From Octopus sinensis (taxonomy: Eukaryota): a stretch of 64,000 bases of DNA. This document shows positions 5,209-63,000 of this stretch, piece after piece. A program made the position numbers and the translations under genes. Location: assembly GCF_006345805.1 (NCBI RefSeq), contig NC_043011.1, positions 40,436,464-40,500,463 of the forward strand, written 5' to 3'. Under the pieces are notes generated by a model, which worked only from the letters and a program-made list of their open reading frames with translations, was not told the origin of the DNA and ran no database searches. Each line of letters opens with the position of its first letter. Positions within the stretch are counted from its first letter, which is position 1.

Positions 5209-5762
5209 CAGTAAGGTAGAAGAAAAGGAATCCAGAAAGGATGAAGGCTGAGAAAGGGAGGGGGACAGAAAGGTTAAGAATGCGCATCATTATTAATATT
5301 AAGAACAAACTTACTTAGAAATGGATGCGTTCGTTCCGTCATATAATAACAAATTATTAAATAAAACATATGCATATATACATACATATATGTACGTACC
5401 TACATCTACATGTATATATACATGCATATATGGGTACAGGACACCAAAAAAACGTCGAACACAATGAGAAACGAAAAAATAAACACAAAACCAAGGAAAT
5501 GGACATTTATCTTAAGCAACAAAAAAATAGAGTACAGGACATACAAGACAAGGAAAATTTCCCTTCCTCAGTCGCCTCTGTTTCATCTACTCCGCGTTTC
5601 GAAGGTCAAGGCGAGACACGACTTCTTTGAAACATCCCTTCCCGCAAAAAGCAAGCGAGGGGCTTCTTTCAGTTTTCGCCTACCAAATCCTCGGCCCGAA
5701 GCTATAGTAGAAGACACTTGCCCAAGGTGCCACGAAGTGGCACTGAACCTGGAATCATGTGT
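4284..5762 (-). mobile_element. SINE family C, interrupted at its internal (TA)n by a 1.1-kb insertion
   Basis: Matches intact copies (19893, 20512, 46410) on both sides of 4516-5654. Confidence 0.75.
4516..5654 (-). mobile_element. partial-tandem non-coding element (824-bp unit, ~1.4 copies), PLE pseudo-LTR-like
   Basis: 4521-4828 is repeated at 5345-5654 with offset 824. Inserted in (TA)n. Loosely related to 26990-27748. Strand inferred from HHR-like motifs. Confidence 0.6.
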
Positions 5763-7672: not shown

Positions 7673-7703
<31 letters not shown>

Positions 7704-7981
7704 ATTAATTAATAAGGGTGAGAGAATTAGATACTAATTTAATAGTATATCTATTCTACATCAAGTGGCCTGTGCTCCGAGAACCTGGATTATTATAATA
7801 TTTTATATATATTATAATATTTTTACAAAATAAATATAAGAGAGTGGTCACTATATGGCTCACTCTAGCAGCAGTTAATCCAATAGGTTTCAACCACAAA
7901 AATACATGTTTCCCATGAAAGTCAGTACGATTGTTAGCTCACACGGACAGAGCAAATAAAAAATAACAAAAATACAGATTA

Positions 7982-8063
7982 TTTTGGGACAATTGTTTCG
8001 CTATTAATGAATTAAATGTAATTTTACTTACAAAAAAATCCACTTGTAGCTCCTCAGCCAAAA
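7982..8063 (-). ncRNA. type I hammerhead ribozyme (array 1 left arm; also near 8522, 9056, 9587, 10120)
   Basis: UUUUGG-CUGAGGA-GCUA[hairpin]UAGC-GAAAC-AAUU-GUC^CCAAAA; all core nucleotides canonical. Confidence 0.88.
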
Positions 8064-11000
8064 CTATCTGGATGAAATCCACTCAATCAATCACACGCCA
8101 GATTTTATCATAACGATAAATACGCGTGTGGTTCAATTGATTACATCCGACGTTAAATTCAAATGCCCCAACCAACAGCGCGCCAAATTTTCACGGAAAA
8201 CAAATACAGCATTTAGAAATAAATGCAGCATAATTATAATTAATAATAAGGGTGAGAGAATTAGATACTAATTTAATAGTATATTCTATTCTACACCAAG
8301 TGGCCTAGTGCTCCGAGAAACCTGGATTATTATAATATTTTATAATATATTATAATATTTTTACAAAATAAATATAAGAGAGTGGTCACTATATGGCTCA
8401 CTCTAGCACCAGTTAATCTAATAGGTTTCACACACACAAAAATACATGTTTCCCATGAAAGTCAGTACGATTGTTAGCTCACACGGACAGGGCAAATAAA
8501 AAATAACAAAAATACAGATTATTTTGGGACAATTGTTTCGCGCTATTAATGAATTAAATGTAATTTTACTTACAAAAAAATCCCACTGTAGCTCCTCAGC
8601 CAAAACTATCTGGATGAAATCCACTCAATCACACGCCAGATTTTATCATAACGATAAATACGCGTGTGGTTCAATTGATTACATCCGACGTTATAATTCA
8701 AATGCCCCAACCAACAGCGCGCCAAATTTTCACGGAAAACAAATACAGCATTTAGAAATAAATGCAGCATAATTATAATTATTAATAAGGGTGAGAGAAT
8801 TAGATACTAATTTAATAGTTAATCTATTCTACACCAAGTGGCCTAGTGCTCGCGAGAAACCTGGATTATTATAATATTTTATAATATATTATAATTTTTT
8901 ACAAAATAAATATAAGAGAGTGGTCACTATATGGCTCACTCTAGCACCAGTTAATCCAATAGGTTTCAACCACAAAAATACATGTTTCCATGAAAGTCAG
9001 TACGATTGTTAGCTCACACGGACAGGGCAAATAAAAAATAACAAAAATACAGATTATTTTGCGACAATTGTTTCGCTATTAATGAATTAATGTAATTTTA
9101 CTTACAAAAAAATCCACTTGTAGCTCCTCAGCCAAAACTATCTGGATGAAATCCACTCAATCACACGCCAGATTTTATCATAACGATAAATACGCGTGTG
9201 GTTCAATTGATTACATCCGACGTTATAATTCAAATGCCCCAACCAACAGCGCGCCAAATTTTCACGGAAAACAAATACAGCATTAGAAATAAATGCAGCA
9301 TAATTATAATTAATTAATAAGGGTGAGAGAATTAGATACTAATTTAATAGTATATCTATTCTACACCAAGTGGCCTAGTGCTCCGAGAAACCTGGATTAT
9401 TATAATATTTTATAATATATTATAATATTTTTACAAAATAAATATAAGAGAGTGGTCACTATATGGCTCACTCTAGCACCAGTTAATCCAATAGGTTTCA
9501 ACCACAAAAATACATGTTTCCCATGAAAGTCAGTACGATTGTTAGCTCACACAGGACAGGGCAAATAAATAACAAAAATACAGATTATTTTGGGACAATT
9601 GTTTCGCTATTAATGAATTAAATGTAATTTTACTTACAAAAAAATCCACTTGTAGCTCCTCAGCCAAAACTATCTGGATGAAATCCACTCAATCACACGC
9701 CAGATTTTATCATAACGATAAATACGCGTGTGGTTCAATTGATTACATCCGACGTTATAATTCAAATGCCCCAACCAACAGCGCGCCAAATTTTCACGGA
9801 AAACAAATACAGCATTTAGAAATAAATGCAGCATAATTATAATTAATTAATAAGGGTGAGAGAATTAGATACTAATTTAATAGTATATCTATTCTACACC
9901 AAGTGGCCCGTGCTCCGAGAACCTGGATTATTATAATATTTTATATATATTATAATATTTTTACAAAATAAATATAAGAGAGTGGTCACTATATGGCTCA
10001 CTCTAGCACCAGTTAATCCAATAGGTTTCAACCACAAAAATACATGTTTCCCATGAAAGTCAGTACGATTGTTAGCTCACACGGACAGGGCAAATAAAAA
10101 ATAACAAAAATACAGATTATTTTGGGACAATTGTTTCGCTATTAATGAATTAAATGTAATTTTACTTACAAAAAAATCCACTTGTAGTTCCTCAGCCAAA
10201 ACTATCTGGATGAAATCCACTCAATCACACGCCAGATTTTATCATAACGATAAATACGCGTGTGGTTCAATTGATTACATCCGACGTTATAATTCAAATG
10301 CCCCAACCAACAGCGCGCCAAATTTTCACGGAAAACAAATACAGCATTTAGAAATAAATGCAGCATAATTATAATTAATTAATAAGGGTGAGAGAATTAG
10401 ATACTAATTTAATAGTATAATCTATCTACACCAAGTGCCTATTAACTGGTGCTAGAGTGAGCCATATAGTGACCACTCTCTTATATATTTGTAAAAATAT
10501 TATAATATATTATAATATTATAATAATCCAGGTTTCTCGGAGCACTAGGCACTTGGTGTGTAGAATAGATATACTATTAAATTAGTATCTAATTCTCTCA
10601 CCCTTATTAATTAATTTAATTATGCTGCATTTATTTCTAAATGCTGTATTTGTTTTCGTGAAAATTTGGCGCGCTGTTTGTTGGGGCATTTGAATTATAA
10701 CGTCGGATGTAATCAATTGAACCACACGCGTATTTATCGTTATGATAAAATGGGCGTGTGATTGAGTGGATTTCATCCAGATAGTTTTGGCTGAGGAGCT
10801 ACAAGTGGATTTTTTTGTAAGTAAAATTACATTTAATTCATTAATAGCGAAACAATGTCCAAAATAATCTGTATTTTTGTTATTTTTTATTTGCCCTGTC
10901 CGTGTGAGCTAACAATCGTACTGACTTTCATGGGAAACATGGATTTTGTGGTTGAAACCTATTGGATTAACTGGTGCTAGAGTGAGCCATATAGTGACCA

Positions 11001-12374
11001 CTCTCTTATAATTTATTTTGTAAAAATATTATAATATATTATAAAATATTATAATAATCCAGGTTTCTCGGAGCATTAGGCCACTTGGTGTAGAATAGAT
11101 ATACTATAAATTAGTATCTAATTCTCTCACCCTATTAATTAATTATAATTATGCTGCATTTATTTTAATGCTGTATTTGTTTTCCGTGAAAATTTGGCGC
11201 GCTGTTGGTTGGGGCATTTGAATTATAACGTCGGATGTAATCATTGAACCACACGCGTATTTATCGTTATGATAAAATCTGGCGTGTGATTGAGTGGATT
11301 TCATCCAGATAGTTTTGGCTGAGGAGCTACAAGTGGATTTTTTTGTAAGTAAAATTACATTTAATTCATTAATAGCGAAACAATTGTCCAAAATAATCTG
11401 TATTTTTGTTATTTTTTATTTGCCCTGTCCGTGTGAGCTAACAATCGTACTGACTTTCATGGGAAACATGTATTTTGTGTGGTTGAAACCTATTGGATTA
11501 ACTGGTGCTAGAGTGAGCCATATAGTGACCACTCTCTTATATTTATTTTGTAAAAATATTATAATAATATAAAATATTATAATAACCAGGTTTCTCGGAG
11601 CACTAGGCCACTTGGTGTAGAATAGATATACTATTAAATTAGTATCTAATTCTCTCACCCTTATTAATTAATTATAATTATGCTGCATTTATTTCTAAAT
11701 GCTGTATTTGTTTTCCGTGAAAATTTGGCGCGCTGTTGGTTGGGGCATTTGAATTATAACGTCGGATGTAATCAATGAACCACACGCGTATTTATCGTTA
11801 TGATAAAATCTGGCGTGTGATTGAGTGGATTTCATCCAGATAGTTTTGGCTGAGGAGCTACAAGTGGATTTTTTTGTAAGTAAAATACATTTAATTCATT
11901 AATAGCGAAACAATTGTCGCAAAATAATCTGTATTTTTGTTATTTTTTATTTGCCCTGTCCGTGTGAGCTAACAATCGTACTGACTTTCATGGGAAACAT
12001 GTATTTTTGTGGTTGAAACCTTTGGATTAACTGGTGCTAGAGTGAGCCATATAGTGACCACTCTCTTATATTTATTTTGTAAAAATATTATAATATATTA
12101 TAAAATATTAAATAATCCAGGTTTCTCGGAGCACTAGGCCACTTGGTGTAGAATAGATATACTATTAAATTAGTATCTAATTCTCTCACCCTTATTAATT
12201 AATTATAATTATGCTGCATTTATTTCTAAATGCTGTATTTGTTTTCCGTGAAAATTTGGCGCGCTGTTGGTTGGGGCATTTGAATTATAACGTCGGATGT
12301 AATCAATTGAACCACACGCGTATTTATCGTTATGGTAAATCTGGCGTGTGATTGAGTGGATTTCATCCAGATAG

Positions 12375-12456
12375 TTTTGGCTGAGGAGCTACAAGTGGAT
12401 TTTTTTGTAAGTAAAATTACATTTAATTCATTAATAGCGAAACAATTGTCCCAAAA
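12375..12456 (+). ncRNA. type I hammerhead ribozyme (array 1 right arm; also near 10785, 11313, 11844, 12906, 13437)
   Basis: TTTTGG CTGAGGA GCTA...TAGC GAAAC AATT GTC CCAAAA; stem I extends by CAGAT/ATCTG. Confidence 0.88.
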
Positions 12457-13671
12457 TAATCTGTATTTTTGTTTTTTTATTTGCCCTGTCCGTGTGAGCT
12501 AACAATCGTACTGACTTTCATGGGAAACATGTATTTTTGTGGTTGAAACCTTTTGGATTAACTGGTGCTAGAGTGAGCCATATAGTGACCACTCTCTTAT
12601 ATTTATTTTGTAAAAATATTATAATATATTATAAAATATTATAAAATCCAGGTTTCTCGGAGCACTAGGCCACTTGGTGTAGAATAGATATACTATTAAT
12701 TAGTATCTAATTCTCTCACCCTTATTAATTAATTATAATTATGCTGCATTTATTTCTAAATGCTGTATTTGTTTTCCGTGAAAATTTGGCGCGCTGTTGG
12801 TTGGGGCATTTGAATTATAACGTCGGATGTAATCAATTGAACCACACGCGTATTTATCGTTATGGTAAAATCTGGCGTGTGATTGAGTGGATTTCATCCA
12901 GATAGTTTGGGCTGAGGAGCTACAAGTGGATTTTTTTGTAAGTAAAATTACATTTAATTCATAATAGCGAAACAATTGTCCCAAAATAATCTGTATTTTT
13001 GTTATTTTTTATTTGCCCTGTCCATGTGAGCTAACAATCGTACTGACTTTCATGGGAAACATGTATTTTTGTGGTTGAAACCTATTGGATTAACTGGTGC
13101 TAGAGTGAGCCATATAGTGACCACTCTCTTATATTTATTTTGTAAAAATATTATAATATATTATAAAATATTATAATAATCCAGGTTTCTCGGAGCACTA
13201 GGCCACTTGGTGTAGAATAGATATACTATTAAATTAGTATCTAATTCTCTCACCCTTATTAATTAATTATAATTATGCTGCATTTATTTCTAAATGCTTA
13301 TTTGTTTTCCGTGAAAATTTGGCGCGCTGTTGGTGGGGCCTTTGAATTATAACGTCGGATGTAATCAATTGAACCACACGCGTATTTATCGTTATGATAA
13401 AATCTGCGTGTGATTGAGTGGATTTCATCCAGATAGTTTTGGCTGAGGAGCTACAAGTGGATTTTTTTGTAAGTAAAATTACATTTAATTCATTAATAGC
13501 GAAACAATTGTCGCCAAAATAATCTGTATTTTTGTTATTTTTTATTTGCCCTGTCCGTGTGAGCTAACAATCGTACTGACTTTCATGGGAAACATGTATT
13601 TTGGTGGTTGAAACCTATTGGATTAACTGGTGCTAGAGTGAGCCATATAGTGACCACTCTCTTATATTTAT

Positions 13672-15250: not shown

Positions 15251-15639
15251 TCACTCACTCACTCACGTTCGTAGGTATAGTGAAGCAGAGGGTTGCACAA
15301 TTCACGTATTGAGTCGACAAAAACATATTTGGTTAATTAAATTTAGACCCGTGTTGGAAATAAAAGTTATTAGCTATCATTAGTAATAATTCTCGTCTAA
15401 AAAGAACTCTCCGAAATGCAAATTGAATATAATTTCTATAGGATTATGTAGTGGTGTGGGAGATTGATCTTGGGCAAGTGTAGGGATTATGAGTGACATG
15501 TTTCTAATTTATTCAGCCACTTCAGTTTTATTCTTACTAGAAAAATTTCTAGAAACAGTGAAAATATTCAAAAAAAAATTAATAAAAATCTATTATATAA
15601 ATTATCTTCAAAAGAAGATTAGCAAACACCTGTTGAACT

Positions 15640-16126
15640 ATTTACATTTGACGGATATTTGTCCTCATCTTGTTTGTCGGGAGACCGTACATGTGTGGTG
15701 GTTTATCGTAGTGTCAAGTCAGTTGACTGTATTTCATTGGTGTAAAGTGATCCTTAATCAAGATCTGTGACAACTTCCTCTCTGTTTTCAGAGATGGGTC
15801 TTTCTTTACTTTGCTGTAGCTACCATCACTTATAAGACTTGCCAAGTTTTCCGAGCAGCCATACTTGTTCATCACCAATGTAGCATTTCCTTTGTCTGAC
15901 AACTCGAAAAACTTGGCAAGTCTTATAAGTGATGGTAGCTACAGCAAAGTAAAGAAAGACCCATCTCTGAAAACAGAGAGGAAGTTGTCACAGATCTTCA
16001 TCAAGAACAAGGGTCACTTAACACCAATGAAATATAGACAACTGACTCGACACTACACTAAACTACCTCACATGTACGGTCTCCCAAACAAACAAGATAA
16101 GGAGAAATATCCGTCAAATGTAAATA
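15640..16126. mobile_element. inverted pair of Penelope-like RT N-terminal fragments
   Basis: Minus: DKGNATLVMNK...LISDGSYSKVKKDPSLKTERKL. Plus: LISDGSY...KLPHMYGLP. DKG and P.xYGLPK are PLE RT motifs. Arms 15640-15850 and 15910-16126. Confidence 0.8.
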
Positions 16127-16334: not shown

Positions 16335-16365
<31 letters not shown>

Positions 16366-16420
16366 TCAGGGTGAGTACTTGATAATTGTAAGCACCTGTA
16401 TATACCGTTTATAAAACAAA

Positions 16421-16582
16421 ATGATGCCAAGGATTCAGCGGTACATATGTTTCGGGCCTTTATTAGACGGATTTATAACAATGCATAATGTGTGTCTATG
16501 GCCTTAGACACACATTATGCATTGTTATAAATCCGTCTAATAAAGGCCCGAAACATATGTACCGCTGAATCCTTGGCATCAT
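16421..16582. repeat. perfect ~78-bp-arm hairpin containing the 3' half of a hammerhead
   Basis: ATGATGCCAAGG...TGTGTCTA / TAGACACA...CCTTGGCATCAT; each arm carries GGCCC-GAAAC-ATAT-GTA. Confidence 0.85.
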
Positions 16583-16605
16583 GTTTTTATTTTGATTAAT
16601 TTATT

Positions 16606-16868: not shown

Positions 16869-17091
16869 ATTGTATAAAAGATCGTGGGTAAGGCCAAAAC
16901 AATGCTAAGTAAATGCAAGGTAAATCACCAGAAAACAAATATGTGAATTAATATAGACTTACCTTATATTCAGTATTTCGGGGTTATTGAATACAAGATA
17001 AGTCTACATTAATTCACATATTTGTTTTCTTGTGATTTCCCTTGCATTTACTTCGCATTGTTTTGGCCTTACCCACGATCCTTTATACAAT
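16869..17091. repeat. inverted repeat, ~93-bp arms, ~37-bp spacer
   Basis: 16869-16961 is the reverse complement of 16999-17091 with a few mismatches. Confidence 0.85.
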
Positions 17092-19856: not shown

Positions 19857-19892
19857 TTCCGGTAGATTTCGACTTTTTAACTTTCGGGGTCA

Positions 19893-20309
19893 CTCTTTTA
19901 CTTGTTTCAGTCATTTGACTGTGGCCATGCTGGAGCACCACCTTTAGTCGAGCAAATTGGGGACTTATTCTTTGTAAGCCTAGTACTTATTCTATCGGTC
20001 TTTGGCCGAACCGCTAAGTTACGGGGACGTAAACACACCAGCATCGGTTGTCAAGCGATGTTGGGGCGACAAACACAGACACACACACACAGACACACAC
20101 ACACACACACGCGCGCACACACACACACTCACACACACACACATACATATATATATACATATATACGACGGGCTTCTTTCAGTTTCCGTCTACCAAATCC
20201 ATTCTCAAGGCTTTGTTCGACTCGCGGCTATAGTAGAAGACACTTGCCTGTACCCGGAACCATGTGGTCGGTAAGCAAGCTACTTACCACACACCTACTC
20301 CTACGCCTA
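19893..20309 (-). mobile_element. SINE family C, nested in a family-B copy
   Basis: tRNA-like head, internal (CA)n/(TA)n, AAAGAGT tail; family-B sequence on both sides. Confidence 0.8.
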
Positions 20310-20511
20310 CGGGTTGATAAATCATTCTTTTCTACTCCAGGCACAAGGCTCGAAATTTTTGGGGAGGTGTCAAGTCGATTAGATCTACCCCAGTACTCAA
20401 CTGGTACTGATAGACAAAGTATTATTTGAACACTGGTATCGATGTAGTCGACTTCCTTCATCTCCTTAAAATTGCTGACTTTGTACTAAAAATTAGAAAG
20501 AATTATTGACA

Positions 20512-20660
20512 AGGAGTGGTTGTGTGGTAAGAAGCTTTCTTACCAACTACATGATTCTAGGTTCAGTCCCACTGCGTGGCACCTTGGACGACTGTCTTCT
20601 GCTATAGCCTCGGGCCGACTGAAGCCTTGTGGGTGGTAGACAGAAACTGAAATAAGCTCG

Positions 20661-20694
<34 letters not shown>

Positions 20695-20900
20695 TTGTAT
20701 GTCTGTTTGTTCCTCCTCCACCGTCGCTTGACAACCGATGTTGGTGTGACTACGTCCCCGTAACTTAGCAGTTCAGCAATAGAGACCGATAGAATAAGTA
20801 CTAGGCTTACAAAGAATAAGTTCGATTTGTTCGACTAAAGGCGGAGCTCCAGCATGGCTGCAGTCAAATGACTGAAACAAATAAAAGAGTAAAAGAGTAA
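20512..20900 (+). mobile_element. SINE family C
   Basis: AGGAGTGGTTGTGTGGTAAG...GGTTCAGTCCC...CACCTTGGACG; tail (AAAAGAGT)2. Confidence 0.8.
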
Positions 20901-24155: not shown

Positions 24156-25108
24156 GCAAACTTTTACTTTTCTTAATTTAGAATAATAACATCTGGAGAA
24201 CATTTCCAGAAAGTGTAAATTTATCGATTTTTTTTCAAGCATATATCCTTCGCCATCTGTAAGAAGAATAAGTAACAACAACGAGGAGGCGGTTTATTTA
24301 TAATTTCTTTCGAAAGACGTAGAGCGAAGGAAAGTAACATTCTTTTGTTCTCTCAGTTCTCTTCAGTTTTGAAGAGCGAATACAATAGCAGAAGATGCAA
24401 AGATTGAATGACACAATCGAAACGATTTTGTTTATGCTTTTGTTTTTCAGGAGGTTTGAGAATATTAAAGAAAGCTATAAAACAATAAAGATTAAACTGA
24501 ACGTAAAGAAGTGGGCTACGATGACAACGATGACGACGACGATGAGGAGGACGACAAAGACGCGGACGACAACAACGATGGCGAAGGCAACGACAACGAT
24601 GATGATGATGGTGACAAAACGAGGCTGTACAAATTCATTAGGAAACATCTACCGACGCATATCTAATAGTATACACCATGCTTCGATATATCAAATACAA
24701 ACAATCACACATATACACTTATAAAGAAGTACACACACAGGCACGATTTTTGCATGGTTATATATGTATAAAGAAAACTCCGAATGACCCGTCCTTGTTT
24801 TCTTTGTATCCTCTATCTGGATGTTTTGTTGTCCCTTTCTTGTATCACCTAACTGTCTGGATGTTTTGCGTTCTTGTTCCATTTTGTATTATATATATAT
24901 ATATATATATATTATGTGAAATAGAAAGATGAATAATCTTGTAGCAGATTAATCAAAAGTTTAACCGATACCTTGGTAGCAAAAATCACAGCAGAAGACA
25001 GCACAGTTGGAGGTACAACCATATGGTGTTGCAACCGTGCGTTGGTGCGGATAATTGAATTTTAATATTATTAGTGAAATGAAGAAATGGAGCTGAACGA
25101 AATCGTTT

Positions 25109-25201
25109 TATTTCATTCTACACGTGTTTCGAAAGGCACAATTTACCAAAATCCGACTGAATAATGAGACCATATTGTGTCTTTCTCTTCAGGAAGAAAT
25201 A
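25109..25201 (-). ncRNA. type I hammerhead ribozyme
   Basis: Reverse complement of 26314-26406. Confidence 0.9.
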
Positions 25202-26313
25202 GGAAATCCGTTGGAAAAAACAAAAACAGAACAGAGGCGGAGCAAAACAAATCGAACTAGGCTCCTAAGAGCCCATGGCCAAACTGTTTATCAGTGTATA
25301 TTGAGAACGGGTGGTGGGTGCGTTGAAGAATTTAACGGGTCAGGCAGCGGTCATTCCTGTGGGTGAGGGCACGAGGTGTGTAGATGTTCTTTGTGACCGA
25401 GAGTAAAGTTCTGACTATTTAAAGAATATTGGATGTATTATATGGGGCGAGTCAAAATCTACTTAGAGACATGTGTGTGTTTACTGTTCTATATATGTGT
25501 GCTGGCGCGAGTTGGTAAGAAGCGCTATTTTCTGGTCACTGCTGAGAACTCCGTCAAGGGGTAGAAAACATTTTTTGTGTACGTGTGTGCGTTTGATCGC
25601 GCGGCTGTCAGTTGTTAAACAGCTCTACACAATGGTCACTGCAGTAAAAACCGTCGGGCGGCAGAAAAATATTTTATGTTTTATGTGTGCGTGTGTTCGT
25701 CTAATCATGCCTTGTCAAAGAGACCCCCCGTCGTCAAAAACAAAGCCCCATTCATCTCACAGGAGTAGTGAGATGAGCATGATTAGACGAACATGATTGA
25801 CAAGGCATGATTAGACGAACACACGCACACATAAAACATAAAATATTTTTCTGCCGCCCGACGGTTTTTACTGCAGTGACCATTGTGTAGAGCTGTTTAA
25901 CAACTGACAGCCGCGCGATCAAACGCACACACGTACACAAAAAATGTTTTCTACCCCTTGACGGAGTTCTCAGCAGTGACCAGAAAATAGCGCTTCTTAC
26001 CAACTCGCGCCAGCACACATATATAGAACAGTAAACACACACATGTCTCTAAGTAGATTTTGACTCGCCCCATATAATACATCCAATATTCTTTAAATAG
26101 TCAGAACTTTACTCTCGGTCACAAAGAACATCTACACACCTCGTGCCCTCACCCACAGGAATGACCGCTGCCTGACCCGTTAAATTCTTCAACGCACCCA
26201 CCACCCGTTCTCAACATACACCGATAAACAGTTTGGCCATGGGCTCTTAGGAGCCTAGTTCGATTTGTTTTGCTCCGCCTCTGTTCTGTTTTTGTTTTTT
26301 CAAACGGATTTCC

Positions 26314-26406
26314 TATTTCTTCCTGAAGAGAAAGACACAATATGGTCTCATTATTCAGTCGGATTTTGGTAAATTGTGCCTTTCGAAACACGTGTAGAAT
26401 GAAATA
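26314..26406 (+). ncRNA. type I hammerhead ribozyme
   Basis: TATTTCTTC-CTGAAGA-GAAAGACACAAT...ATTGTGCCTTTC-GAAAC-ACGT-GTA^GAATGAAATA. Confidence 0.9.
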
Positions 26407-26454
26407 AAACGATTTCTGTTCAATCTTCGTTCAGCTCCATTTCTTCATTTCACT

Positions 26455-26499
<45 letters not shown>

Positions 26500-27852: not shown

Positions 27853-27894
27853 TTCAGTACCGGTTTCGGTCATTTGAGACCTTTTCAACTGTAA
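27853..27894 (-). ncRNA. decayed minimal hammerhead in a (TA)n-flanked fragment (27802-28037)
   Basis: TTACAG-TTGAAAA-GGTC TCAAAT GACC-GAAAC-CG-GTA-CTGAA; core has C3U and G8A. Confidence 0.65.
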
Positions 27895-30348: not shown

Positions 30349-30705
30349 AAGCGACAAGGGAAATGTATGGAGTTTGGATGCCAGCGAAAATAGCTGGGAG
30401 GCAATTTAAAAATCGATCTTTAAAGCAGAAATGTCAATATAACTAAAATAGCTATTTCTTATTATGAATAATTGTTATAACAAAAATAATAGGCTGATAG
30501 GCAAGGAGAAAGGTTTACATGAATAAAATAAATAATGAAAAATAGAGGAAACAAAGAGAAAAGAAGAGAAAGAAAAAGAAGAAACTCTAACCAGCTTTCT
30601 ATAGTATTCTTATACAAGGCTTTAATGCATTCTCAACGGCTTCTTGCGTTGTAATGATTTCAAATGTAGACTTAGAGGCCGTGGATTTTTTGTCGTACAG
30701 TACTT

Positions 30706-31212
30706 CTCTATGGTTGTGAAACGTGGCCTATGCGGGTGGTCGATCAACGAAGGCTCGAAGTCTTCGACAATGACTGCCTCCGGTGCATTCTTCGCTGCCA
30801 TCGGGTGGATCGAGTTCCCACCGCCAATCTCCGACTTCGCCTGTCTCTGCGGCCCCTTCCATCTGTCCTTCTGCAACGGCGCTTGCGGTGGTTTGGCCAT
30901 GCATGTAGGCATCCGGTGGGTGAACTGAGCCGTGATGTCCTTCTCCCAACTCCACTTCCCAACTGGCGGAAACGCGCGGGCGGGCAGCTGAAGACCTGGG
31001 TTACGACGATCAAGGAGGACCTCTCTGTGCTCACGGGACCGCAGGTGGTCGGCCTGCGCCAGTGGAACCGTGACTGGCTCGCTATCTCTAGTGAACTGGC
31101 GCACGACCATCGTGCGTGGGCTGCCATGGTTCGAGATGCCTCGAGGATGGTAGAAGAAGCCGACTCAACCCGCCCAGGGTGAATGTCGCCACAAGTACAA
31201 GTACAAGTAAGT
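30706..31212 (+). mobile_element. RTE-clade LINE 3' end, 5'-truncated
   Basis: LYGCETWP...CLRCIL...RRLRWFGHACR...W C-terminus with open frame and stop at 31182, then (CAAGTA)3 tail. Confidence 0.9.
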
Positions 31213-34785: not shown

Positions 34786-35093
34786 ATATATATTATGTAT
34801 GTATGTATATATATATATATATACATATACTATATATATATACATTTTATATATATGTATATATATGTCTATATATGTATATATATGTGTATATATATTA
34901 TATATATATATATTATATAAAAGGGCTTAGTAAAATAAATTACTTTGCCGCATACTGAACTCATTAGAAATAGCAGCTAAAAAACTTTTTTAAGGCTATT
35001 TCTAATACTTAAAGAAAATCTCTCTCATATATAGTGTTTGCATAATTTAACTCACAAAAGTTTGGGGGTAATGACATCGAAAAATCAAATGCT

Positions 35094-35163
35094 AAGGTTA
35101 TTCGAGAACGTACGTTTCAAGATTAGTCAAAACAACATTCTATCATCGGCTCGGAAATTCCTT
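35094..35163 (-). ncRNA. variant type I hammerhead (array 2 left arm; also near 35635, 36181, 36721)
   Basis: Reverse complement of the motif at 37429. Confidence 0.6.
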
Positions 35164-37428
35164 GGTTGGATTTGGAAACACTGAAAATAAGAACATACCC
35201 TCTCGAAGATCTGCTCCCAACTAACAGTGCCAACAAATTCAAAATAAGCAAGCGAAGAATCTCTGTTCTCCCCTTTCCACCAGCGTGGGTTAAAATCATC
35301 AAACTCTATGCTTATTTCGGTAAAGTCCGAAGCATTAATCAGAGGGAGATTAATTATAATTTCAACAATTGAGGGCAAAATTAATTAATTATTAATCAAT
35401 TTCACCAAGTGTTCAGTATGCAAAGGGACCATTCAAGGCGAATTCAAATTATTACATTATATAAAAGGGCTTAGTAAAATAAATTACTTTGCCGCATACT
35501 GAACTCATTAGAAATAGCAGCTAAAAAACTTTTTTAAGGCTATTTAATACTTAAAGAAAATCTCTCTCATATATAGTGTTTGCATAATTTAACTCACAAA
35601 AGTTTGGGGGTAATGACATCGAAAAATCAAATGCTAAGGTTATTCGAGAACGTACGTTTCAAGATTAGTCAAAACAACATTTCTATCATCGGCTCGGAAA
35701 TTCCTTGGTTTGGATTTGGAAACACTGAAAATAAGAACATACCCTCTCGAAGATCTGCTCCAACTAACAGTGCCAACAAATTCAAAATAAGCAAGCGAAG
35801 AATCTCTGTTCTCCCCTTTCCACCAGCGTGGGTTAAAATCATCAAACTCTATGCTTATTTCGGTAAAGTCCGAAGCATTAATCAGAGGGAGATTAATTAT
35901 AATTTCAACAATTGAGGGCAAAATTAATTAATTATTAATCAATTTCACCAAGTGTTCAGTATGCAAAGGGACCATTCAAGGCGAATTCAAATTATTACAT
36001 TATATAAAAGGGCTTAGTAAAATAAATTACTTTGCCGCATACTGAACTCATTAGAAATAGCAGCTAAAAAACTTTTTTAAGGCTATTTCTAATACTTAAA
36101 GAAAATCTCTCTCATATATAGTGTTTGCATAATTAAATCACAAAAGTTTGGGGGTAATGACATCGAAAAATCAAATGCTAAGGTTATTCGAGAACGTACG
36201 TTTCAAGATTAGTCAAAACAACATTTCTATCATCGGCTCGGAAATTCCTTGGTTTGGATTTGGAAACACTGAAAATAAGAACATACCCTCTCGAAGATCT
36301 GCTCCCAACTAACAGTGCCACAAATTCAAAATAAGCAAGCGAAGAATCTCTGTTCTCCCCTTTCCACCAGCGTGGGTTAAAATCATCAAACTCTATGCTT
36401 ATTTCGGTAAAGTCCGAAGCATTAATCAGAGGGAGATTAATTATAATTTCAACAATTGAGGGCAAAATAATTAATTATTAATCAATTTCACAAGTGTTCA
36501 GTATGCAAAGGGACCATTCAAGGCGAATTCAAATTATTACATTATATAAAAGGGCTTAGTAAAATAAATTACTTTGCCGCATACTGAACTCATTAGAAAT
36601 AGCAGCTAAAAAACTTTTTTAAGGCTATTTCTAATACTTAAAGAAAATCTCTCTCATATATAGTGTTTGCATAATTTAACTCACAAAAGTTTGGGGGTAA
36701 TGACATCGAAAATCAATGCTAAGGTTATTCGAGAACGTACGTTTCAAGATTAGTCAAAACAACATTTCTATCATCGGCTCGGAAATTCCTTGGTTTGGAT
36801 TTGGAAACACTGAAAATAAGAACATACCCTCTCGAAGATCTGCTCCCAACTAACAGTGCCAACAAATTCAAAATAAGCAAGCGAAGAATCTCTGTTCTCC
36901 CCTTTCCACCAGCGTGGGTTAAAATCATCAAACTCTATGCTTATTTCGGTAAAGTCCGAAGCATTAATCAGAGGGAGATTAATTATAATTTCAACAATTG
37001 AGGGCGCAAACACTATATATGAGAGAGATTTTCTTTAAGTATTAGAAATAGCCTTAAAAAAGTTTTTTAGCTGCTATTTCTAATGAGTTCAGTATGCGGC
37101 AAAGTAATTTATTTTACTAAGCCCTTTTATATAATGTAATAATTTGAATTCGCCTTGAATGGTCCCTTTGCATACTGAACACTTGGTGAAATTGATTAAT
37201 AATTAATTAATTTTGCCCTCAATTGTTGAAATTATAATTAATCTCCCTCTGATTAATGCTTCGGACTTTACCGAAATAAGCATAGAGTTTGATGATTTTA
37301 ACCCACGCTGGTGGAAAGGGGAGAACAGAGATTCTTCGCTTGCTTATTTTGAATTTGTTGGCACTGTTAGTTGGGAGCAGATCTTCGAGAGGGTATGTTC
37401 TTATTTTCAGTGTTTCCAAATCCAAACC

Positions 37429-37499
37429 AAGGAATTTCCGAGCCGATGATAGAAATGTTGTTTTGACTAATCTTGAAACGTACGTTCTCGAATAACCTT
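37429..37499 (+). ncRNA. variant type I hammerhead (array 2 right arm; also near 37969, 38510, 39054)
   Basis: AAGG..TTCCGAG-CCGATGA-TAGA...TCTT-GAAAC-GTAC-GTT^CTCGAA..CCTT; U4C core and GUU triplet. Confidence 0.6.
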
Positions 37500-40400
37500 A
37501 GCATTTGATTTTTCGATGTCATTACCCCCAAACTTTTGTGAGTTAAATTATGCAAACACTATATATGAGAGAGATTTTCTTTAAGTATTAGAAATAGCCT
37601 TAAAAAAGTTTTTTAGCTGCTATTTCTAATGAGTTCAGTATGCGGCAAAGTAATTTATTTTACTAAGCCCTTTTATATAATGTAATAATTTGAATTCGCC
37701 TTGAATGGTCCCTTTTGGTGAAATTGATTAATAATTAATTAATTTTGCCCTCAATTGTTGAAATTATAATTAATCTCCCTCTGATTAATGCTTCGGACTT
37801 TACCGAAATAAGCATAGAGAGTTTGATGATTTTAACCCACGCTGGTGGAAAGGGGAGAACAGAGATTCTTCGCTTGCTTATTTTGAATTTGTTGGCACTG
37901 TTAGTTGGAGCAGATCTTCGAGAGGGTATGTTCTTATTTTCAGTGTTTTCCAAAAACCAAGGAATTTCCGAGCCGATGATAGAAATGTTGTTTTGACTAA
38001 TCTTGAAACGTACGTTCTCGAATAACCTTAGCATTTGATTTTTCGATGTCATTACCCCCAAACTTTTGTGAGTTAAATTATGCAAACACTATATATGAGA
38101 GAGATTTTCTTTAAGTATTAGAAATAGCCTTAAAAAAGTTTTTTAGCTGCTATTTCTAATGAGTTCAGTATGCGGCAAAGTAATTTATTTTACTAAGCCC
38201 TTTTATATAATGTAATAATTTGAATTCGCCTTGAATGGTCCCTTTGCATACTGAACACTTGGTGAAATTGATTAATAATTAATTAATTTTGCCCTCAATT
38301 GTTGAAATTATAATTAATCTCCCTCTGATTAATGCTTCGGACTTTACCGAAATAAGCATAGAGTTTGATGATTTTAACCCACGCTGCTGGTGGAAAGGGG
38401 AGAACAGAGATTCTTCGCTTGCTTATTTTGAATTTGTTGGCACTGTTAGTTGGGAGAGCAGATCTTCGAGAGGGTATGTTCTTATTTTCAGTGTTTCCAA
38501 ATCCAAACCAAGGAATTTCCGAGCCGATGATAGAAATGTTGTTTTGACTAATCTTGAAACGTACGTTCTCGAATAACCTTAGCATTTGATTTTTCGATGT
38601 CATTACCCCCAAACTTTTGTGAGTTAAATTATGCAAACACTATATATGAGAGAGATTTTCTTTAAGTATTAGAAATAGCCTTAAAAAAGTTTTTTAGCTG
38701 CTATTTCTAATGAGTTCAGTATGCGGCAAAGTAATTTATTTTACTAAGCCCTTTTATATAATGTAATAATTTGAATTCGCCTTGAATGGTCCCTTTGCAT
38801 ACTGAACACTTGGTGAAATTGATTAATAATTAATTAATTTTGCCCTCAATTGTTGAAATTATAATTAATCTCCCTCTGATTAATGCTTCGGACTTTACCG
38901 AAATAAGCATAGAGTTTGATGATTTTAACCCACGCTGGTGGAAAGGGGAGAACAGAGATTCTTCGCTTGCTTATTTTGAATTTGTTGGCACTGTTAGTTG
39001 GGAGCAGATCTTCGAGAGGGTATGTTTATTTTCAGTGTTTCCAAATCCAAACCAAGGAATTTCCGAGCCGATGAAGAAATGTTGTTTTGACTAATCTTGA
39101 AACGTACGTTCTCGAATAACCTTAGCATTTGATTTTTCGATGTCATTACCCCCAAACTTTTGTGAGTTAAATTATGCAAACACTATATATGAGAGAGATT
39201 TTCTTTAAGTATTAGAAATAGCCTTAAAAAAGTTTTTTAGCTGCTATTTCTAATGAGTTCAGTATGCGGCAAAGTAATTTATTTTACTAAGCCCTTTTAT
39301 ATAATGTAATAATTTGAATTCGCCTTGAATGGTCCCTTTGCATACTGAACACTTGGTGAAATTGATTAATAATTAATTAATTTTGCCCTCAATTGTTGAA
39401 ATTATATATATATATTATATATATAATATATATATATATACATATATATATATGAAAGAAAGTTATTTTATTCCATGTGCGTAAAAATATATGAGCAAAG
39501 AAGTTGAAAACGCACTGGCAGTCTTTTATCTGTTTTATTTTTAATGGCTTAACCGGTTTCACACATTTTTCTGAGTTTCAAAATTTGAGATAGAAAGACG
39601 TGCGGCTATGGCGCAGCTATTTTGCATTTGACTGAAGTTCGAAAATTCTCTTTTGTTTTTATAGAGAGCTCATGACTCAAATTAATATTTGTTTAGAATA
39701 CACTTTGGCTGATACGCATGTTAGCCTAAACTTAGAGTGCAAAAAATATTGTTATATTATATTAACGCACGGACGTAGTTGGGAACATGCAAACATTTCT
39801 AAGGCTAATCACGTGATAATTCTCTACTGATTAAAAAAAAATATATCCATTTAATGGATATTAATTTAAGTCATTTTGTCTCTACAAATACGCGAATTTT
39901 CGAACTCCAGTCAGAAGCAAGACATTCGCGGCATAGCCCCCCCCCCCACGTCTTTCCATCTCACTTAATTTAAGAAAATCAGAAAAATCTATGAAACGGG
40001 TTGAGCATTCAAAAACCAACCATTTCAAAAATTCCCACTGAATTTCTCCCTTCAGGAAGGAGGAGTTAATACAAACTGGCCAACCCTGGAATTTACAGAT
40101 ACTAGGAAAACTAAGAAATAACACCATCTTAGTTGTTTGATGAAAATATTATGGTATGTGTTATGGAATGCTTCTGTCATTCCATTAGTAATAGACACTG
40201 GATTGATACACAGCCATTTTTGTAAAGACACTGAAAAGTTCCCTGTAACGATAGACAGCCATGTTCAAGAAAATAGCAGTGCTATTAGAATCAGTAAATT
40301 ATTGTTAGTGCATTCTCATACAGCATTTGATCATGAAAATTCTTATTGATCTTCAACATCTTCGTTAATCATGAATACGTTTATGCATGTTGTCAAAGAC

Positions 40401-47191: not shown

Positions 47192-47730
47192 AATAAATAA
47201 TATTAAGGGTAATAAGAATTATAGAAATTATTATTACCAGTGGCCTAGCACAAAAAAATTAGTCAATAGATTATATATTATTCGCATAAAAATATCGTAT
47301 ACATTAAAACACATTAAGAGGCTTCCAAATAGGAAAGCTTTGTGCTAGAAGGAGCAGTAGAAAACTCAAACCACTAATTAGGGATAAATTCTCGAAAAGA
47401 ATAAAAATCGAAAACGTTTACCATCTAATTTAGTTCCTAGACCATGGTTTCCGACTAATTCCAGTAAAAAAATATTTACTGAGGCCAGCTTCGTCAGTAG
47501 GGAGCCTTTAGATTTCAAATATACACACAACTAGATTCACATGTAAACTAGCTGCCTGTATATCTTAACTTTTCAAAACCACTGCGCAGATGCAGTTTAT
47601 TTCCGGCGACAGAGGGGATGTACACGATATTTTTATGTGAATAATATATAGTCTATTGACTAATTTTTGTTGTGCTAGGCCACTGGTAATAATAATTTCT
47701 ATAATTCTTATTACCCTAATATTATTTATT
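47192..47730. mobile_element. fold-back element with ~90-bp inverted ends and an internal hammerhead; related to the array 1 unit
   Basis: 47192-47283 mirrors 47637-47730; TAAGGGT...ACCAGTGGCCTAG shared with array 1. Confidence 0.8.
47435..47502 (-). ncRNA. type I hammerhead, stem II base degenerate
   Basis: CCTA-CTGACGA-[..TCAGTAAA/TTTACTGG..]-GAAAC-CATG-GTC^TAGG. Confidence 0.75.
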
Positions 47731-57082: not shown

Positions 57083-58305
57083 GATATCAAGAAAGTTCTT
57101 GCGGAATTTTTAATATTGGTTTCAAATTAATTTTCGTTAAATTACTTTGACTTTATATATCATTTTAAAACCGGTTTTTCGCTCTATCTAATCGTGTTAC
57201 TTTTTGAATAATTAGGCCATTTTGTCCTGGACGTTGAATACAACATGGACAAAAAGCAAATTCGCACAATTTTCTTATTCCAGTTCAACCTAGGCCGAAA
57301 AGCTGCTGAAACAGCTCGCGTGCGCTTGGCTCAGGAACCACTAATGAACGTACAGCACAATGGTGGTTCAAGAAATTTCATAGCGGTGACGAGAGTCTTG
57401 AAGATGATAAGCCTAGTGGTTGGCCATCGGATGTTTACAACGATCAACTAAGAGCCTTAGTGGAAGCCAATCCACGCCCAACTGTTCGAGAGCTTGCTTC
57501 TGAATTAGACGTAACGTATACAATTTCCAACCATTTGAAAGAAATTGGAAAAGCAAAAATACTTGAGAAATGGGTGCCGCACGAATTGAGCGACAGCCCC
57601 CCCCCCAAAAAAAAATGCCGTTTTGAAGTGCCGTCTTCCCTTCTTTTACGCGACAAGAACGACCTGTTTCTCGACCGGATTGTGACTTGCGATGAAAAGT
57701 GGATTCTTTACGACAACCGGCGACGCTCAGCTCAGTGGTTGGACGCCGATAAAGCTTCACGGCACTTTCCGAAGCCGAAGTTGCACCAAAAGAAAGTCGT
57801 GGTGAGTGTTTAATGGTCTGTGGCTGGTCTCATCCATTGACAGCTTTTTGGATCCAGGCGATACCATTACGGCGGAGAAGTACTGTCAGCAAATGGATGA
57901 AATGCATAAGAAACTCCGACAACAACAGTCAGCAATGGTCAATAGAAAAGGACCAATTCTTCTCCACGACAACGCTCGGCCGCACGTCGCACAACTGACC
58001 TTGCAGAATTTCAACGAATTTGGCCACGAAACTCTGCCTCATCTGCCATACTCACCAGACCTCTCGCCTACCGACTACCACTTTTTCAAGCATCTCTACA
58101 TCTTCCTGTGTGAGAAATGCTTCAAAAACCAAGACGATGCCAAACACGCCTTCAACGACTTCATCGGCAGCAGAATGCAGGATTTTACACGTTGGCAAAA
58201 GTGTGTTGATTCAGTGTTTATTTCGATTAATAACATTTTGTTGAGCCGAGATATGTGCATCTAAATTTAAAGGTTAAAAATGCAAGAACTTTCTTGACAA
58301 CCTAA
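57079..58305 (+). mobile_element. near full-length decayed mariner (cecropia/Hsmar1-like) in (TA)n
   Basis: TIRs TTGGGATATCAAGAAAGTTCTTGC / GCAAGAACTTTCTTGACAACCTAA. Confidence 0.93.
57245..58230 (+). pseudogene. mariner transposase, frameshifted
   Basis: [49 protein letters not shown]; spread over several frames and third catalytic D lost. Confidence 0.92.
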
Positions 58306-58912: not shown

Positions 58913-59520
58913 GACGGGCTTCTTTCAGTCTCCGTCTACCAAATCCACTCACAAGGCTTTGGTTGGCCCGAGGCTATAGTAGAAGACACTTGCCCAAGGT
59001 GCCATACCGAAACTACTTGGTAAAATTTATTAATTTATTAAATTAATAATTCTTTACCCTATATCTGTAATGATTATTTTACTCCCTGGTAACAAAATTG
59101 TGGATCTCTTTCTACGGTACTATCTTGTGACGCACATGGTAAACTTGAGGGAAATACGAATTCAGTCGTCTATATAAGTTTGGATATGCTGACTACCTTG
59201 TGTTATGTTCTGATGGCGCGTGATCAGAAATGCAAAGGGTAAGTTTTCCTAGCATTTTCAAATTTATAATTTTCGAAATATTATGTTGACAATGGAAATG
59301 AATTTTTATAATTCTAATCCAGAAACGCGTCCATAATTAATCGAAGACTGTTTGATTTAATTATTTTTCTTCTTTTTACCTATGTGTGTTACAAATATTG
59401 CTATCTGTGGAGACATATTTTGTAGGAAAAAGAAATAGCAGTCTTTTGGCTGCTATTTCTAAATTTTCGGTATGTGGTGAAGCAACAAGTTGTTAAAACC
59501 CTTAAGTATTGTTATATATA
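58325..59520. mobile_element. older fold-back element of the array 2 family, interrupted by a family-C SINE (58633-59003)
   Basis: 58330-58397 mirrors 59004-59076 and 58450-58570 mirrors 59395-59520. AAGGG.TTAG...TTAGAAATAGCAGC...GCTATTTCT shared with array 2. Confidence 0.8.
59280..59337 (+). ncRNA. decayed type I hammerhead
   Basis: ATTATG-TTGACAA-TGGA...TCCA-GAAAC-GC-GTC^CATAAT. Confidence 0.65.
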
Positions 59521-61345: not shown

Positions 61346-61349
61346 ACGG

Positions 61350-62125: not shown

Positions 62126-62350
62126 CGACATACATACATACATACATTTAGTTAATAAACTAATTCTTGATTTCATGTAGTCTTTTTTTTTGCCATTGTT
62201 AATGTTTTGTCTAACTCCTGGTTACATACAACAGATCGAATAGATATGTACACAAATTCATTGCACATACATACATGCATATATATATATATGTTTTCAT
62301 TGTTTGATTTGCCTAATAGTGGTTTTATCTCTAATTTAATATAATATAAT

Positions 62351-62469: not shown

Positions 62470-63000
62470 TATATAAAATTAATGTACATTTATACACAAA
62501 AGAGGACACTTTACATGATAAATGGAACAGTCAAATCCCAAACCACGGTTAAGAGTAATTTCGAAGGGGATGAAAATAAAATCATTTTAGATAGTTACCA
62601 TTTCTACCTAGGTTTCGAACATTAATGAACAAATAAAATAATTTGTTATCCGTGTTCTTCATCAGCAAGAGCGCTAATAATCAACGTTTAATTATGTGAC
62701 AAATAAAGAGCACATGTCTCATCTTTATACGTTATAATTTTTCAAATCTACAGCGCAAGCGTAGTTATCGCCGGCAGCAAATAAAAATTTATGTGCCGAC
62801 TTTCTTCAAAAGTACTAAAATATATACAGGGTAGAGAAAATTTCTACCAGTGGTTAGCATGCATAAAATAGTCGATAGACAACATATTTCATATAAAATT
62901 AGTGTACATTTATACACAAAAGAGGTGATCCTAACAGGACACCTTACATGCTAGAAGGAACAAACAAAGCCCAAACCACGGTTAAGAATAATTTCGAACA
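62470..63000 (-). mobile_element. partial tandem element (~420-bp unit, ~1.25 copies) with hammerhead
   Basis: TATAAAATTA.TGTACATTTATACACAAAAGAGG at 62472 and 62892; starts at (TA)n. Confidence 0.75.
62601..62670 (-). ncRNA. type I hammerhead, weak stem I
   Basis: CTGATGA-AGAACA...AACAAAT/ATTTGTT...TGTTC-GAAAC-CTAG-GTA. Confidence 0.65.

What the first reader, a model, noticed from the sequence alone, without database searches (positions are those of the whole stretch)
12375..12456. Hammerheads combine a palindromic mini stem III with an unusually long stem II
Seen: stem III regions are self-complementary in each family (ACAATTGT, ACACGTGT, ACGTACGT, ACCATGGT, ACCTAGGT, ACATATGT, ACGCGT, ACCGGT, ACTAGT) despite differing sequence. 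Stem II is a 25-55-nt hairpin in six of them. Known: short palindromic stem III allows dimeric double-hammerhead cleavage. Inference: cleavage may need tandem copies, and the long stem II may hide these motifs from standard searches.
Basis: partly seen in the sequence, partly recalled or inferred. Interest (0 to 1): 0.7.

Follow-up and report, generated by a model that had tools for sequence, protein, structure and literature searches.

The report
Long-armed hammerheads in Penelope-type retroelements
This animal genome holds tens of thousands of hammerhead-ribozyme motifs whose second arm is 30 to 100 bases long instead of the usual 10 to 25, in Penelope-type jumping genes and their non-coding passengers; their palindromic third arm suggests they likely cut best in pairs, a known trick, but cutting is untested.

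Summary
Largely confirmed. 12375-12456 is a type I hammerhead motif (51-nt stem II, stem III ACAATTGT), one of 11 copies in a head-to-head array of 531-bp non-coding units in (TA)n. All nine palindromes exist; one motif lacks its 5' half and several are altered. Genome-wide, exact-core motifs with a 30-118-nt stem II region exceed a reversed-pattern control by about 52,800 (76% of the excess). In 100 sampled, 80 loops are palindromic (7% expected), and the central pairs, which can only form between two copies, covary. The long stem II covaries too and reaches about 100 nt. Long-stem motifs sit in both terminal repeats of an intact Hydra-clade-like Penelope element and in non-coding derivatives. 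Palindromic stem III, dimer cleavage and retrozymes are published; this scan already noted two-armed retrozymes here and a long-stem-II one in another genome. New: the scale, the length range and the Hydra link; a published descriptor cannot see them. 'Needs tandem copies' is unproven: published 2-bp-plus-tetraloop monomers cleave, 85 of 100 copies lack a same-strand partner nearby, and no insertion starts at the cut site. New variant of a known kind.

The parts
12375..12456 (+). F1 type I hammerhead motif of the finding: stem I 12375-12380/12451-12456, core 12381-12387, stem II 12388-12438, stem III 12442-12449, predicted cut after C12450
   Evidence: covariation in 27 relatives
12388..12438 (+). 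51-nt stem II: 4-bp basal helix, small internal loop whose 3' side ends in UUAA, two further helices, 6-nt loop
   Evidence: MFE -12.6 kcal/mol, z -4.0; 3' UUA invariant and final A at least 90% in alignment A4 (the final A was fixed by the search pattern for most rows)
7700..10441 (-). Left arm of the F1 insertion: 5.2 units of about 531 bp, hammerhead cores at 10195, 9663, 9131, 8599, 8057; 3' end joined to (TA)n at unit position 287
10441..13662 (+). Right arm of the F1 insertion: about 6 units, cores at 10791 (palindrome lacks one base), 11319, 11850, 12381, 12912, 13443; 3' end joined to (TA)n at the second end site
24915..26462 (.). F2: inverted pair of 3' ends of a Hydra-clade-like Penelope element; hammerheads at 25119-25192 (-) and 26323-26396 (+), 55-nt stem II, ACACGTGT
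   Evidence: 93% identity to the 3' end of the RT/GIY-YIG element in L049
34915..39405 (.). F3: head-to-head array of about 545-bp non-coding units, 8 hammerhead motifs, 24-25-nt stem II, ACGTACGT, core variant U4C
47440..47497 (-). F4 solo motif, 39-nt stem II, ACCATGGT, imperfect basal stem
62605..62665 (-). F5 solo motif, 42-nt stem II, ACCTAGGT, stem I broken
16354..16603 (.). F6: small inverted fragment of the 3' end of the intact Hydra-like element (L224 family); only the 3' half of the hammerhead (ACATATGT) is left
   Evidence: 93-94% identity to L224 terminal repeats
59286..59331 (+). F7 solo motif, U3-A8 core, 29-nt stem II, ACGCGT
27858..27888 (-). F8 motif, U3-A8 core, ordinary 14-nt stem II, ACCGGT; same core in L061 and L113
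21045..21075 (+). F9 motif, 14-nt stem II, ACTAGT, U3 with G8 (listed relatives have C3)

Best explanation
These are type I hammerhead motifs in the terminal repeats of Penelope-like retrotransposons and in their non-coding tandem derivatives, with a folded stem II of 25 to about 100 nt, and they likely cleave best as double hammerheads, two copies on one long transcript pairing their palindromic stem III. Shown: motif, palindromes, covarying long stem II, place in both terminal repeats of an intact element. Inferred: double cleavage would free a unit-length RNA (531 nt for F1) that is likely circularised and copied round repeatedly by a Penelope RT from two fixed start sites into (TA)n, giving head-to-head arrays. 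The long stem II is likely a tolerated, structurally selected extension beyond a 3-5-bp basal helix (in F1 with an internal loop ending in A, placed where loop 2 normally contacts stem I), not a new catalytic principle; monomers probably keep some activity.
For: Palindromic inner 4 nt in 80 of 100 first-listed 30-58-nt hits, ten different 4-mers, 7% expected; 14 of 14 multi-copy subfamilies. Central pairs covary: UA10/CG4/UG2 in 16 of 16; CG4/UA4 and GC7/AU1 in 8 of 8. Double fold -40.4 versus 2 x -14.6 or -15.6 kcal/mol. Stem II covariation: 7 of 12 pairs change on both sides in A1, 3 of 3 basal and 2 of 7 distal pairs in A3, 3 of 4 basal pairs in A4; 86-93% of cells paired against 31-50% when slid. 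An 842-aa RT/GIY-YIG ORF is framed by two direct repeats, each with the 51-nt-stem motif, 4,769 nt apart in L224, and a tandem in L222/L223. F1: 60 of 63 arm 3' ends fall at two sites, 19 of 22 two-armed loci use one site per arm; 83 variants are fixed in all units of an array, 40 on both arms, 8 of these seen in one locus only. Published: dimer cleavage of short palindromic helix III, PLE hammerheads, retrozyme circles, two RT start sites and both-strand priming; internal loop 2 with a 3' A in CChMVd (-).
Against: No cleavage or circle was measured. Monomers with 2 bp plus tetraloop cleave in coral (0.8/min) and mussel (0.1/min); axolotl Amex2 gives 22% as monomer though more as dimer. Only 15 of 100 sampled hits have a same-strand, same-subfamily partner in their 10-kb locus; 27 have only an opposite-strand one, 58 none. 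None of 63 F1 arm 5' ends lies within 10 nt of the cut site (range 12-499 of 530), so the DNA gives no footprint of cutting. A U4C subfamily spread widely (99 of the first 100 of 490 matches). In a lizard PLE the ribozyme was not needed for insertion in vitro; 8 of 9 Xenopus dimer elements did not cleave. Homogeneous arrays could also come from homogeneous parent arrays not among my 38 loci. Covariation counts include related sequences and structures that I drew by hand from these alignments; A4 was biased by its search pattern. The enzyme that moves F1 is not identified.
Confidence: 0.62

Rival explanations
1. The motifs cleave adequately as monomers through a tertiary contact between the internal loop of stem II and stem I; the palindrome only boosts cleavage in multimers or is inherited.
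For: 2 bp plus tetraloop stem III is the type that cleaves as a monomer in coral and mussel; F1 relatives keep an unpaired 3' A after a 4-bp basal stem II and a 2x2 internal loop 7 bp out in stem I, like the CChMVd (-) internal loop 2; one subfamily set has an almost invariant AGG 5' of stem I complementary to CCU in loop 2 (22 of 24 cells paired, no covariation).
Against: Central pairs that cannot form in a monomer covary in two alignments and at least twelve different palindromic 4-mers are used; closing stem III in the F1 monomer costs +1.0 kcal/mol; the Hydra-linked A1 group has a near-continuous 12-bp stem II with no loop near the core.
Confidence: 0.2
2. The long stem II is mainly a binding site for the Penelope RT/endonuclease protein, which folds or gates the ribozyme; RNA alone cuts little.
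For: The lizard PLE hammerhead cleaved only with its protein; PLE hammerheads are slow in vitro even as dimers; the long stem is kept by covariation in several unrelated groups and sits 100-300 nt from the 3' end in Hydra-like elements.
Against: Lengths run from 11 to about 100 nt with no shared sequence across groups; published Hydra hammerheads manage with 11-25 nt; no binding data.
Confidence: 0.12
3. The motifs are mostly inactive passengers; Penelope enzymes copy uncut multimeric transcripts and the fold is kept for another reason.
For: No insertion starts at the cut site; U4C subfamily is successful; ribozyme dispensable for insertion in vitro.
Against: Tens of thousands of copies in many unrelated families keep the exact core, GUH and complementary stem I; C3-G8 is replaced by the compensating U3-A8 in 24 of 30 loci chosen by protein similarity alone.
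Confidence: 0.06

Closest known systems
Hammerheads of Hydra-clade Penelope-like elements (Craig et al. 2021, PMC8557442; seen: passages, section 11, supplement parts 1-2 of 59 incl. File S2)
   Same: Type I, palindromic 8-10-nt stem III, near the 3' end, (TA)n targets, inverted 5'-truncated copies; protein motifs DKT, CxCX5C, C-terminal GIY-YIG
   Different: Listed Hydra stem II regions are about 11-25 nt; here 51-60 nt in ORF-linked families and up to about 100 nt elsewhere; element 4.4-4.8 kb rather than under 3 kb. The same table lists one plant PLE-X motif (PLE-X1_sMoe) with a 34-nt loop 2 on a 9-bp stem, flagged non-canonical: a precedent for a long stem II in a PLE
Metazoan PLE min-HHRs and variants (Cervera and de la Pena 2014, PMC4209133; seen: text parts 1-2 of 4, passages, supplement file 2 part 2 of 3 and passages; file 1 not searched)
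   Same: Palindromic stem III, proposed dimers, U3-A8 variant, opposite-strand pairs, most copies solo
   Different: Helix II 6-8 bp with short loop; descriptor allows at most 7 bp plus a 10-nt loop and only two bases between A15.1 and U16.1
Animal non-LTR retrozymes (Cervera and de la Pena 2020, PMC7229834, seen: passages and parts 2-3 of 6, supplements not seen; Li et al. 2026, bioRxiv 10.64898/2026.07.22.740005, seen: parts 1-3 of 5, supplements closed)
   Same: Non-coding, low-GC tandem units with one type I hammerhead each, derived from or moved by PLEs; Amex2 has the same 2 bp plus tetraloop stem III and U-U at the base of stem II
   Different: Units of 531-545 bp (150-450 in the 2020 paper, within 51-972 in the 2026 one); long stem II; head-to-head two-armed insertions; circles and cleavage not shown here
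ASBVd and newt double hammerheads; CChMVd (-) hammerhead; Clec2 discontinuous hammerhead (passages of PMC6155905, PMC2632901, PMC3088659)
   Same: Dimer mechanism with unstable helix III (ASBVd, newt); internal loop 2 with 3' A in an extended domain II (CChMVd); very long peripheral helix tolerated (Clec2, helix I)
   Different: Those are single motifs in viroids or mammalian mRNA; here long stem II is the majority form in a retroelement population

Membership tests
Type I hammerhead ribozyme, dimer-type | Core CUGANGA, GAAA, UH in type I order | tested here: met
   F1, F2, F4, F5 exact; F7, F8 U3-A8; F3 U4C; F9 U3 with G8; F6 incomplete
Type I hammerhead ribozyme, dimer-type | Stems I and II form, supported by covariation | tested here: met
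Type I hammerhead ribozyme, dimer-type | Short, fully self-complementary stem III plus loop | tested here: met
   80 of 100, 28 of 50 and 11 of 30 strict palindromes in the three length classes (88, 38, 16 with G-U)
Type I hammerhead ribozyme, dimer-type | Self-cleavage at the predicted site | not testable with these tools
   no biochemical test; no 5'-end footprint in 63 arms
Type I hammerhead ribozyme, dimer-type | Faster cleavage as dimer than as monomer | not testable with these tools
   only an energy model
PLE min-HHR (Cervera 2014 descriptor) | Stem II 3-7 bp, loop 2 of 3-10 nt, GAAANNUH | tested here: not met
   51-nt stem II region and 8-nt stem III against the descriptor
Animal non-LTR retrozyme (F1) | Tandem units each with a type I hammerhead | tested here: met
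   11 copies in the window; 123 in 37 other loci
Animal non-LTR retrozyme (F1) | No protein coding, low GC, dispersed in the genome | tested here: met
   no ORF of 120 aa in the array; GC 31-32%; 828 candidates, 204 matches at up to 99% on many contigs; no PLE protein match within 1.5 kb of 38 relative loci
Animal non-LTR retrozyme (F1) | Unit size 150-450 bp | tested here: not met
   about 531 bp; inside the wider 51-972 range of the 2026 preprint
Animal non-LTR retrozyme (F1) | Expressed as circular RNA | not testable with these tools
   only indirect: array homogeneity
Hydra-clade PLE (L224 family, source of F6; L049 family, source of F2) | Single ORF, RT with DKT, C-terminal GIY-YIG with CxCX5C linker, CxxC and CxH, no CCHH | tested here: met
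   read by eye in the 842-aa ORF of L224 against section 11; RWK appears as RWA; Pfam GIY-YIG only weak (E 0.003-0.004) in two related pieces and absent for five others
Hydra-clade PLE (L224 family, source of F6; L049 family, source of F2) | Insertion in (TA)n, hammerhead in the terminal repeat | tested here: met
Hydra-clade PLE (L224 family, source of F6; L049 family, source of F2) | Generally under 3 kb | tested here: not met
   repeat-to-repeat 4.4-4.8 kb with a 2-kb 3' untranslated part
Hydra-clade PLE (L224 family, source of F6; L049 family, source of F2) | Groups with Hydra RTs in a phylogeny | not tested
   no reference proteins on hand as files

The most novel reading that the evidence does not exclude
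A long, rod-like stem II is a functional module of a large overlooked hammerhead class: it docks the Penelope protein, and together with family-specific palindromes and stem I it acts as an address code so that each retroelement family cuts and circularises only its own multimeric RNA; similar classes are missed in other animal genomes because descriptors cap stem II at about 25 nt.
Probability: 0.17. Interest if true: 0.72.

Novelty: new variant of a known kind. Interest (0 to 1): 0.45.

Why it matters
Hammerhead censuses and Penelope annotation rely on descriptors that cap stem II near 25 nt. In this genome about three quarters of the exact-core motifs with an 8-nt stem III lie beyond that cap, so ribozyme counts in some animals may be far too low, and truncated Penelope copies and their passengers may go unrecognised. 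The set also offers natural covarying variants (at least twelve palindromes, stem II from 11 to 100 nt, an intact autonomous element) for testing two open questions: whether Penelope hammerheads work as dimers and what they do in transposition. It does not change hammerhead chemistry.

Tried and rejected
Rfam found no hammerhead in 12250-12600 even at E 10, none at gathering score in the window and 8 loci including short-stem-II ones, none among the 150 of 212 rows shown for the whole window: uninformative about stem II length. The repeat finder was swamped by microsatellites. A second motif in each F1 unit (GAA-ACATGT) and one at 54241 have two core mismatches: rejected. U3-A8 cores with 25-54-nt linkers show no excess (6,063 against 8,119 control). 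A kissing pair between loop-2 AUUA and stem-I UAAU was considered; those stem I bases are partly paired within stem I and nothing covaries: not supported. The pattern was mis-specified and gave only 8 matches. Protein-selected Hydra loci (30) were too short to reach the hammerhead, 2 kb downstream; it was then seen in all 5 longer Hydra stretches fetched. No autonomous partner found for F1. Expression: no RNA holder listed; contigs of four runs cover the unit but cannot show ends, strand or circles. Sequence look-up in earlier findings returned nothing. Lunse et al. 2017 and Arkhipova et al. 2017 are not held, so I know the first only through a review passage and the second through a methods sentence on 'longer loops'; both could bear on novelty. 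Paper searches that found no description of this class.

Full report
Observation. Five of these six fold better than shuffles (z -1.8 to -4.0); the 25-nt one does not. One motif lacks its 5' half, one has a broken stem I, and four have variant cores. A loose descriptor found 28 palindromic hits in the window against 0-2 in each of 20 shuffles; I rejected 9 of the 28 for two core mismatches.

Setting. The window is microsatellite-rich animal DNA from a 2.72-Gb genome; earlier scan notes call it octopus-like, which I did not test. The motif is one of 11 copies in an insertion at 7700-13662: 5.2 units of about 531 bp on the minus strand and about 6 on the plus strand, head to head at 10441, both ends in (TA)n. 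The unit has no ORF of 120 aa and is a young dispersed family: 828 candidates, 40 scored, 204 matches at up to 99%. F3 (34915-39405) is built the same way; F2 (24915-26462) is an inverted pair.

Genome-wide census. Exact patterns CTGANGA-linker-GAAACNNNNGTH gave, against the reversed pattern: linker 6-29, 17,801 vs 1,223; 30-58, 29,405 vs 1,606; 59-88, 21,307 vs 1,256; 89-118, 6,315 vs 1,389. Linkers of 30 or more make up 52,776 of the 69,354 excess, 76%. With a 6-nt stem III and linker 6-29 the count was 6,088 vs 1,527; long linkers with 6-nt stem III were not counted. Caveats: the control is rough (for U3-A8 cores it exceeded the real count), a short motif can be counted again with a farther core (1 case seen, L239), and not all hits are intact. 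I fetched all 100 first-listed 30-58 hits, 50 hits of the 59-88 class in 40 stretches on contig C1 (listed hits that lay in earlier loci were left out) and the first 30 of the 89-118 class. Palindrome (G-U allowed), stem I of 3 bp or more and basal stem II of 3 bp or more were all present in 65 of 100, 19 of 50 and 5 of 30, roughly 28,000 well-formed long motifs if the samples are typical. Rod-like examples reach 85, 97, 100 and 103 nt.

Palindrome. The pattern left the four loop bases free. They are self-complementary in 80 of 100 (ten different 4-mers), 28 of 50 and 11 of 30 hits; about 7% is expected. All 14 multi-copy subfamilies have a palindromic majority loop, as do 9 of 27 singletons. 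The innermost pairs cannot form within one molecule, yet they covary among relatives: UA 10, CG 4, UG 2 in 16 sequences; CG 4/UA 4 and GC 7/AU 1 in 8. A subfamily with GATT stays fully paired through G-U. In F1's 27 relatives the palindrome is constant, with 2 single breaks. In an energy model, closing stem III in the F1 monomer costs 1.0 kcal/mol, while the double hammerhead gains 9-11 over two monomers. This is the published dimer arrangement.

Long stem II. In three hand-structured alignments 86%, 93% and 89% of cells pair, against 31-50% when partners are slid. The Hydra-linked group has a near-continuous 12-bp helix with 7 pairs changing on both sides. The 44-nt group and the F1 group have a 3-4-bp basal helix, then an internal loop or bulge, then further helices. 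In the F1 group the bulge is a conserved UUAA ending in A next to the basal helix, and the first pair is often U-U, a tolerated mismatch. An unpaired 3' A of loop 2 is the conserved contact in most natural hammerheads, and CChMVd (-) carries it in an internal loop, so F1 may keep the stem I/stem II contact (inference). Limits: rows are related, and A4 was selected by a pattern fixing part of stem II. Of 26 cluster representatives 20 had negative z, many weakly.

Carriers. Several long-stem groups lie 200-2,000 nt downstream of RT/GIY-YIG ORFs on the same strand and 100-300 nt before the (TA)n junction. [quoted passage not shown] These motifs match the Hydra clade description, apart from length; no tree was built. 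F2 and F6 in the window are 93-94% identical to 3' ends of such elements. A second PLE family, Neptune-like by my recall of its protein, has a U3-A8 core, a 20-nt stem II and a palindromic stem III in 24 of 30 loci chosen by protein only. F1 and its relatives are non-coding and share a terminal hairpin motif with F3 and other short families; their helper is unknown.

Insertion record of F1. In 38 loci (biased to full units), 60 of 63 arm 3' ends fall at unit positions 158-198 (31, blurred by TA flanks) or 275-293 (29); 22 loci are two-armed and 19 of these use one site per arm; two of them (L104, L114) are probably the same locus. This fits two RT start sites and priming of both target strands, shown in vitro for a lizard PLE. 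5' ends are scattered from 12 to 499; none is at the cut site. Eighty-three substitutions are fixed in all units of an array, 40 on both arms, 8 of those in one locus only; 27 are partial and 263 are singletons. Repeated copying of one template, most simply a circle, explains this, but a homogeneous parent array would too. Earlier scan notes reached the same reading for other families; I saw them only after these analyses.

Against the tandem requirement. Of 100 hits, 15 have a same-strand partner in their 10-kb locus, 27 only an opposite-strand one, 58 none; most are truncated, presumably inactive copies, so this limits but does not refute the idea. Published monomers with the same stem III size cleave. 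The F3 subfamily in the window carries U4C in 8 of 8 copies and in 99 of the first 100 of 490 genomic matches, so a non-consensus core did not stop its spread. Hammerhead mutants did not block insertion in vitro, and 8 of 9 Xenopus dimers did not cleave.

Hidden from searches? The published min-HHR descriptor allows 3-7 bp and a 3-10-nt loop, and a core search for Naiads used a 7-17-nt spacer: both miss these motifs. Rfam missed them but also missed short-stem controls.

Novelty. Palindromic stem III, dimers, PLE hammerheads, retrozymes, inverted copies and (TA)n targeting are in print. Long peripheral helices have precedents: PLE-X1_sMoe in a supplement, CChMVd (-), ASBVd and Clec2. Eight paper searches found no description of a majority class with 30-100-nt stem II; two relevant papers were not held and several supplements were not seen. 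Verdict: real, a new variant of a known kind, interest 0.45.

Noticed in passing
   Followed up: partly
window 10441 and L098:2769: Two insertions on different contigs share the same inversion junction (unit positions 216/107) but have swapped 3' end sites and different unit numbers; a hot spot or an inherited junction, unexplained.
   Followed up: no
window 12373-12459, run X3: 17 of 25 changed places in contigs of one run are A>G on the hammerhead strand, including the first A of the palindrome; could be A-to-I editing of fold-back RNA, but the run is only guessed to be RNA and no matched DNA was laid.
   Followed up: no
window 34915-39405: U4C core subfamily with a compensatory change in stem I, at least 490 matches genome-wide.
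   Followed up: partly
window 39351-39405 and about 5550-5616; L009, L016, L021, L049, L077: Unrelated short families end in a shared motif, TTGGTG/A, an AT-rich hairpin, then CCCT, just before (TA)n; candidate RT recognition signal.
   Followed up: partly
L113: Three copies of the F8 (U3-A8, ACCGGT) motif lie in the same 6-kb stretch as an F1 insertion.
   Followed up: no
window 57310-58264 (+): Mariner-type transposase fragments in two open frames (identity recalled from the translation, not searched).
   Followed up: no
window 30676-31182 (+), 60607-62151: Non-LTR RT fragments of RTE type by appearance (recalled, not searched).
   Followed up: no
window 15639-16126, 16869-17091, 19892-20890: Other small inverted-repeat insertions without a detected hammerhead.
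   Followed up: no
L222:5637-6528: In a tandem of the intact Hydra-like element two hammerheads lie only 891 nt apart, a possible source of a short non-coding circle.
   Followed up: no
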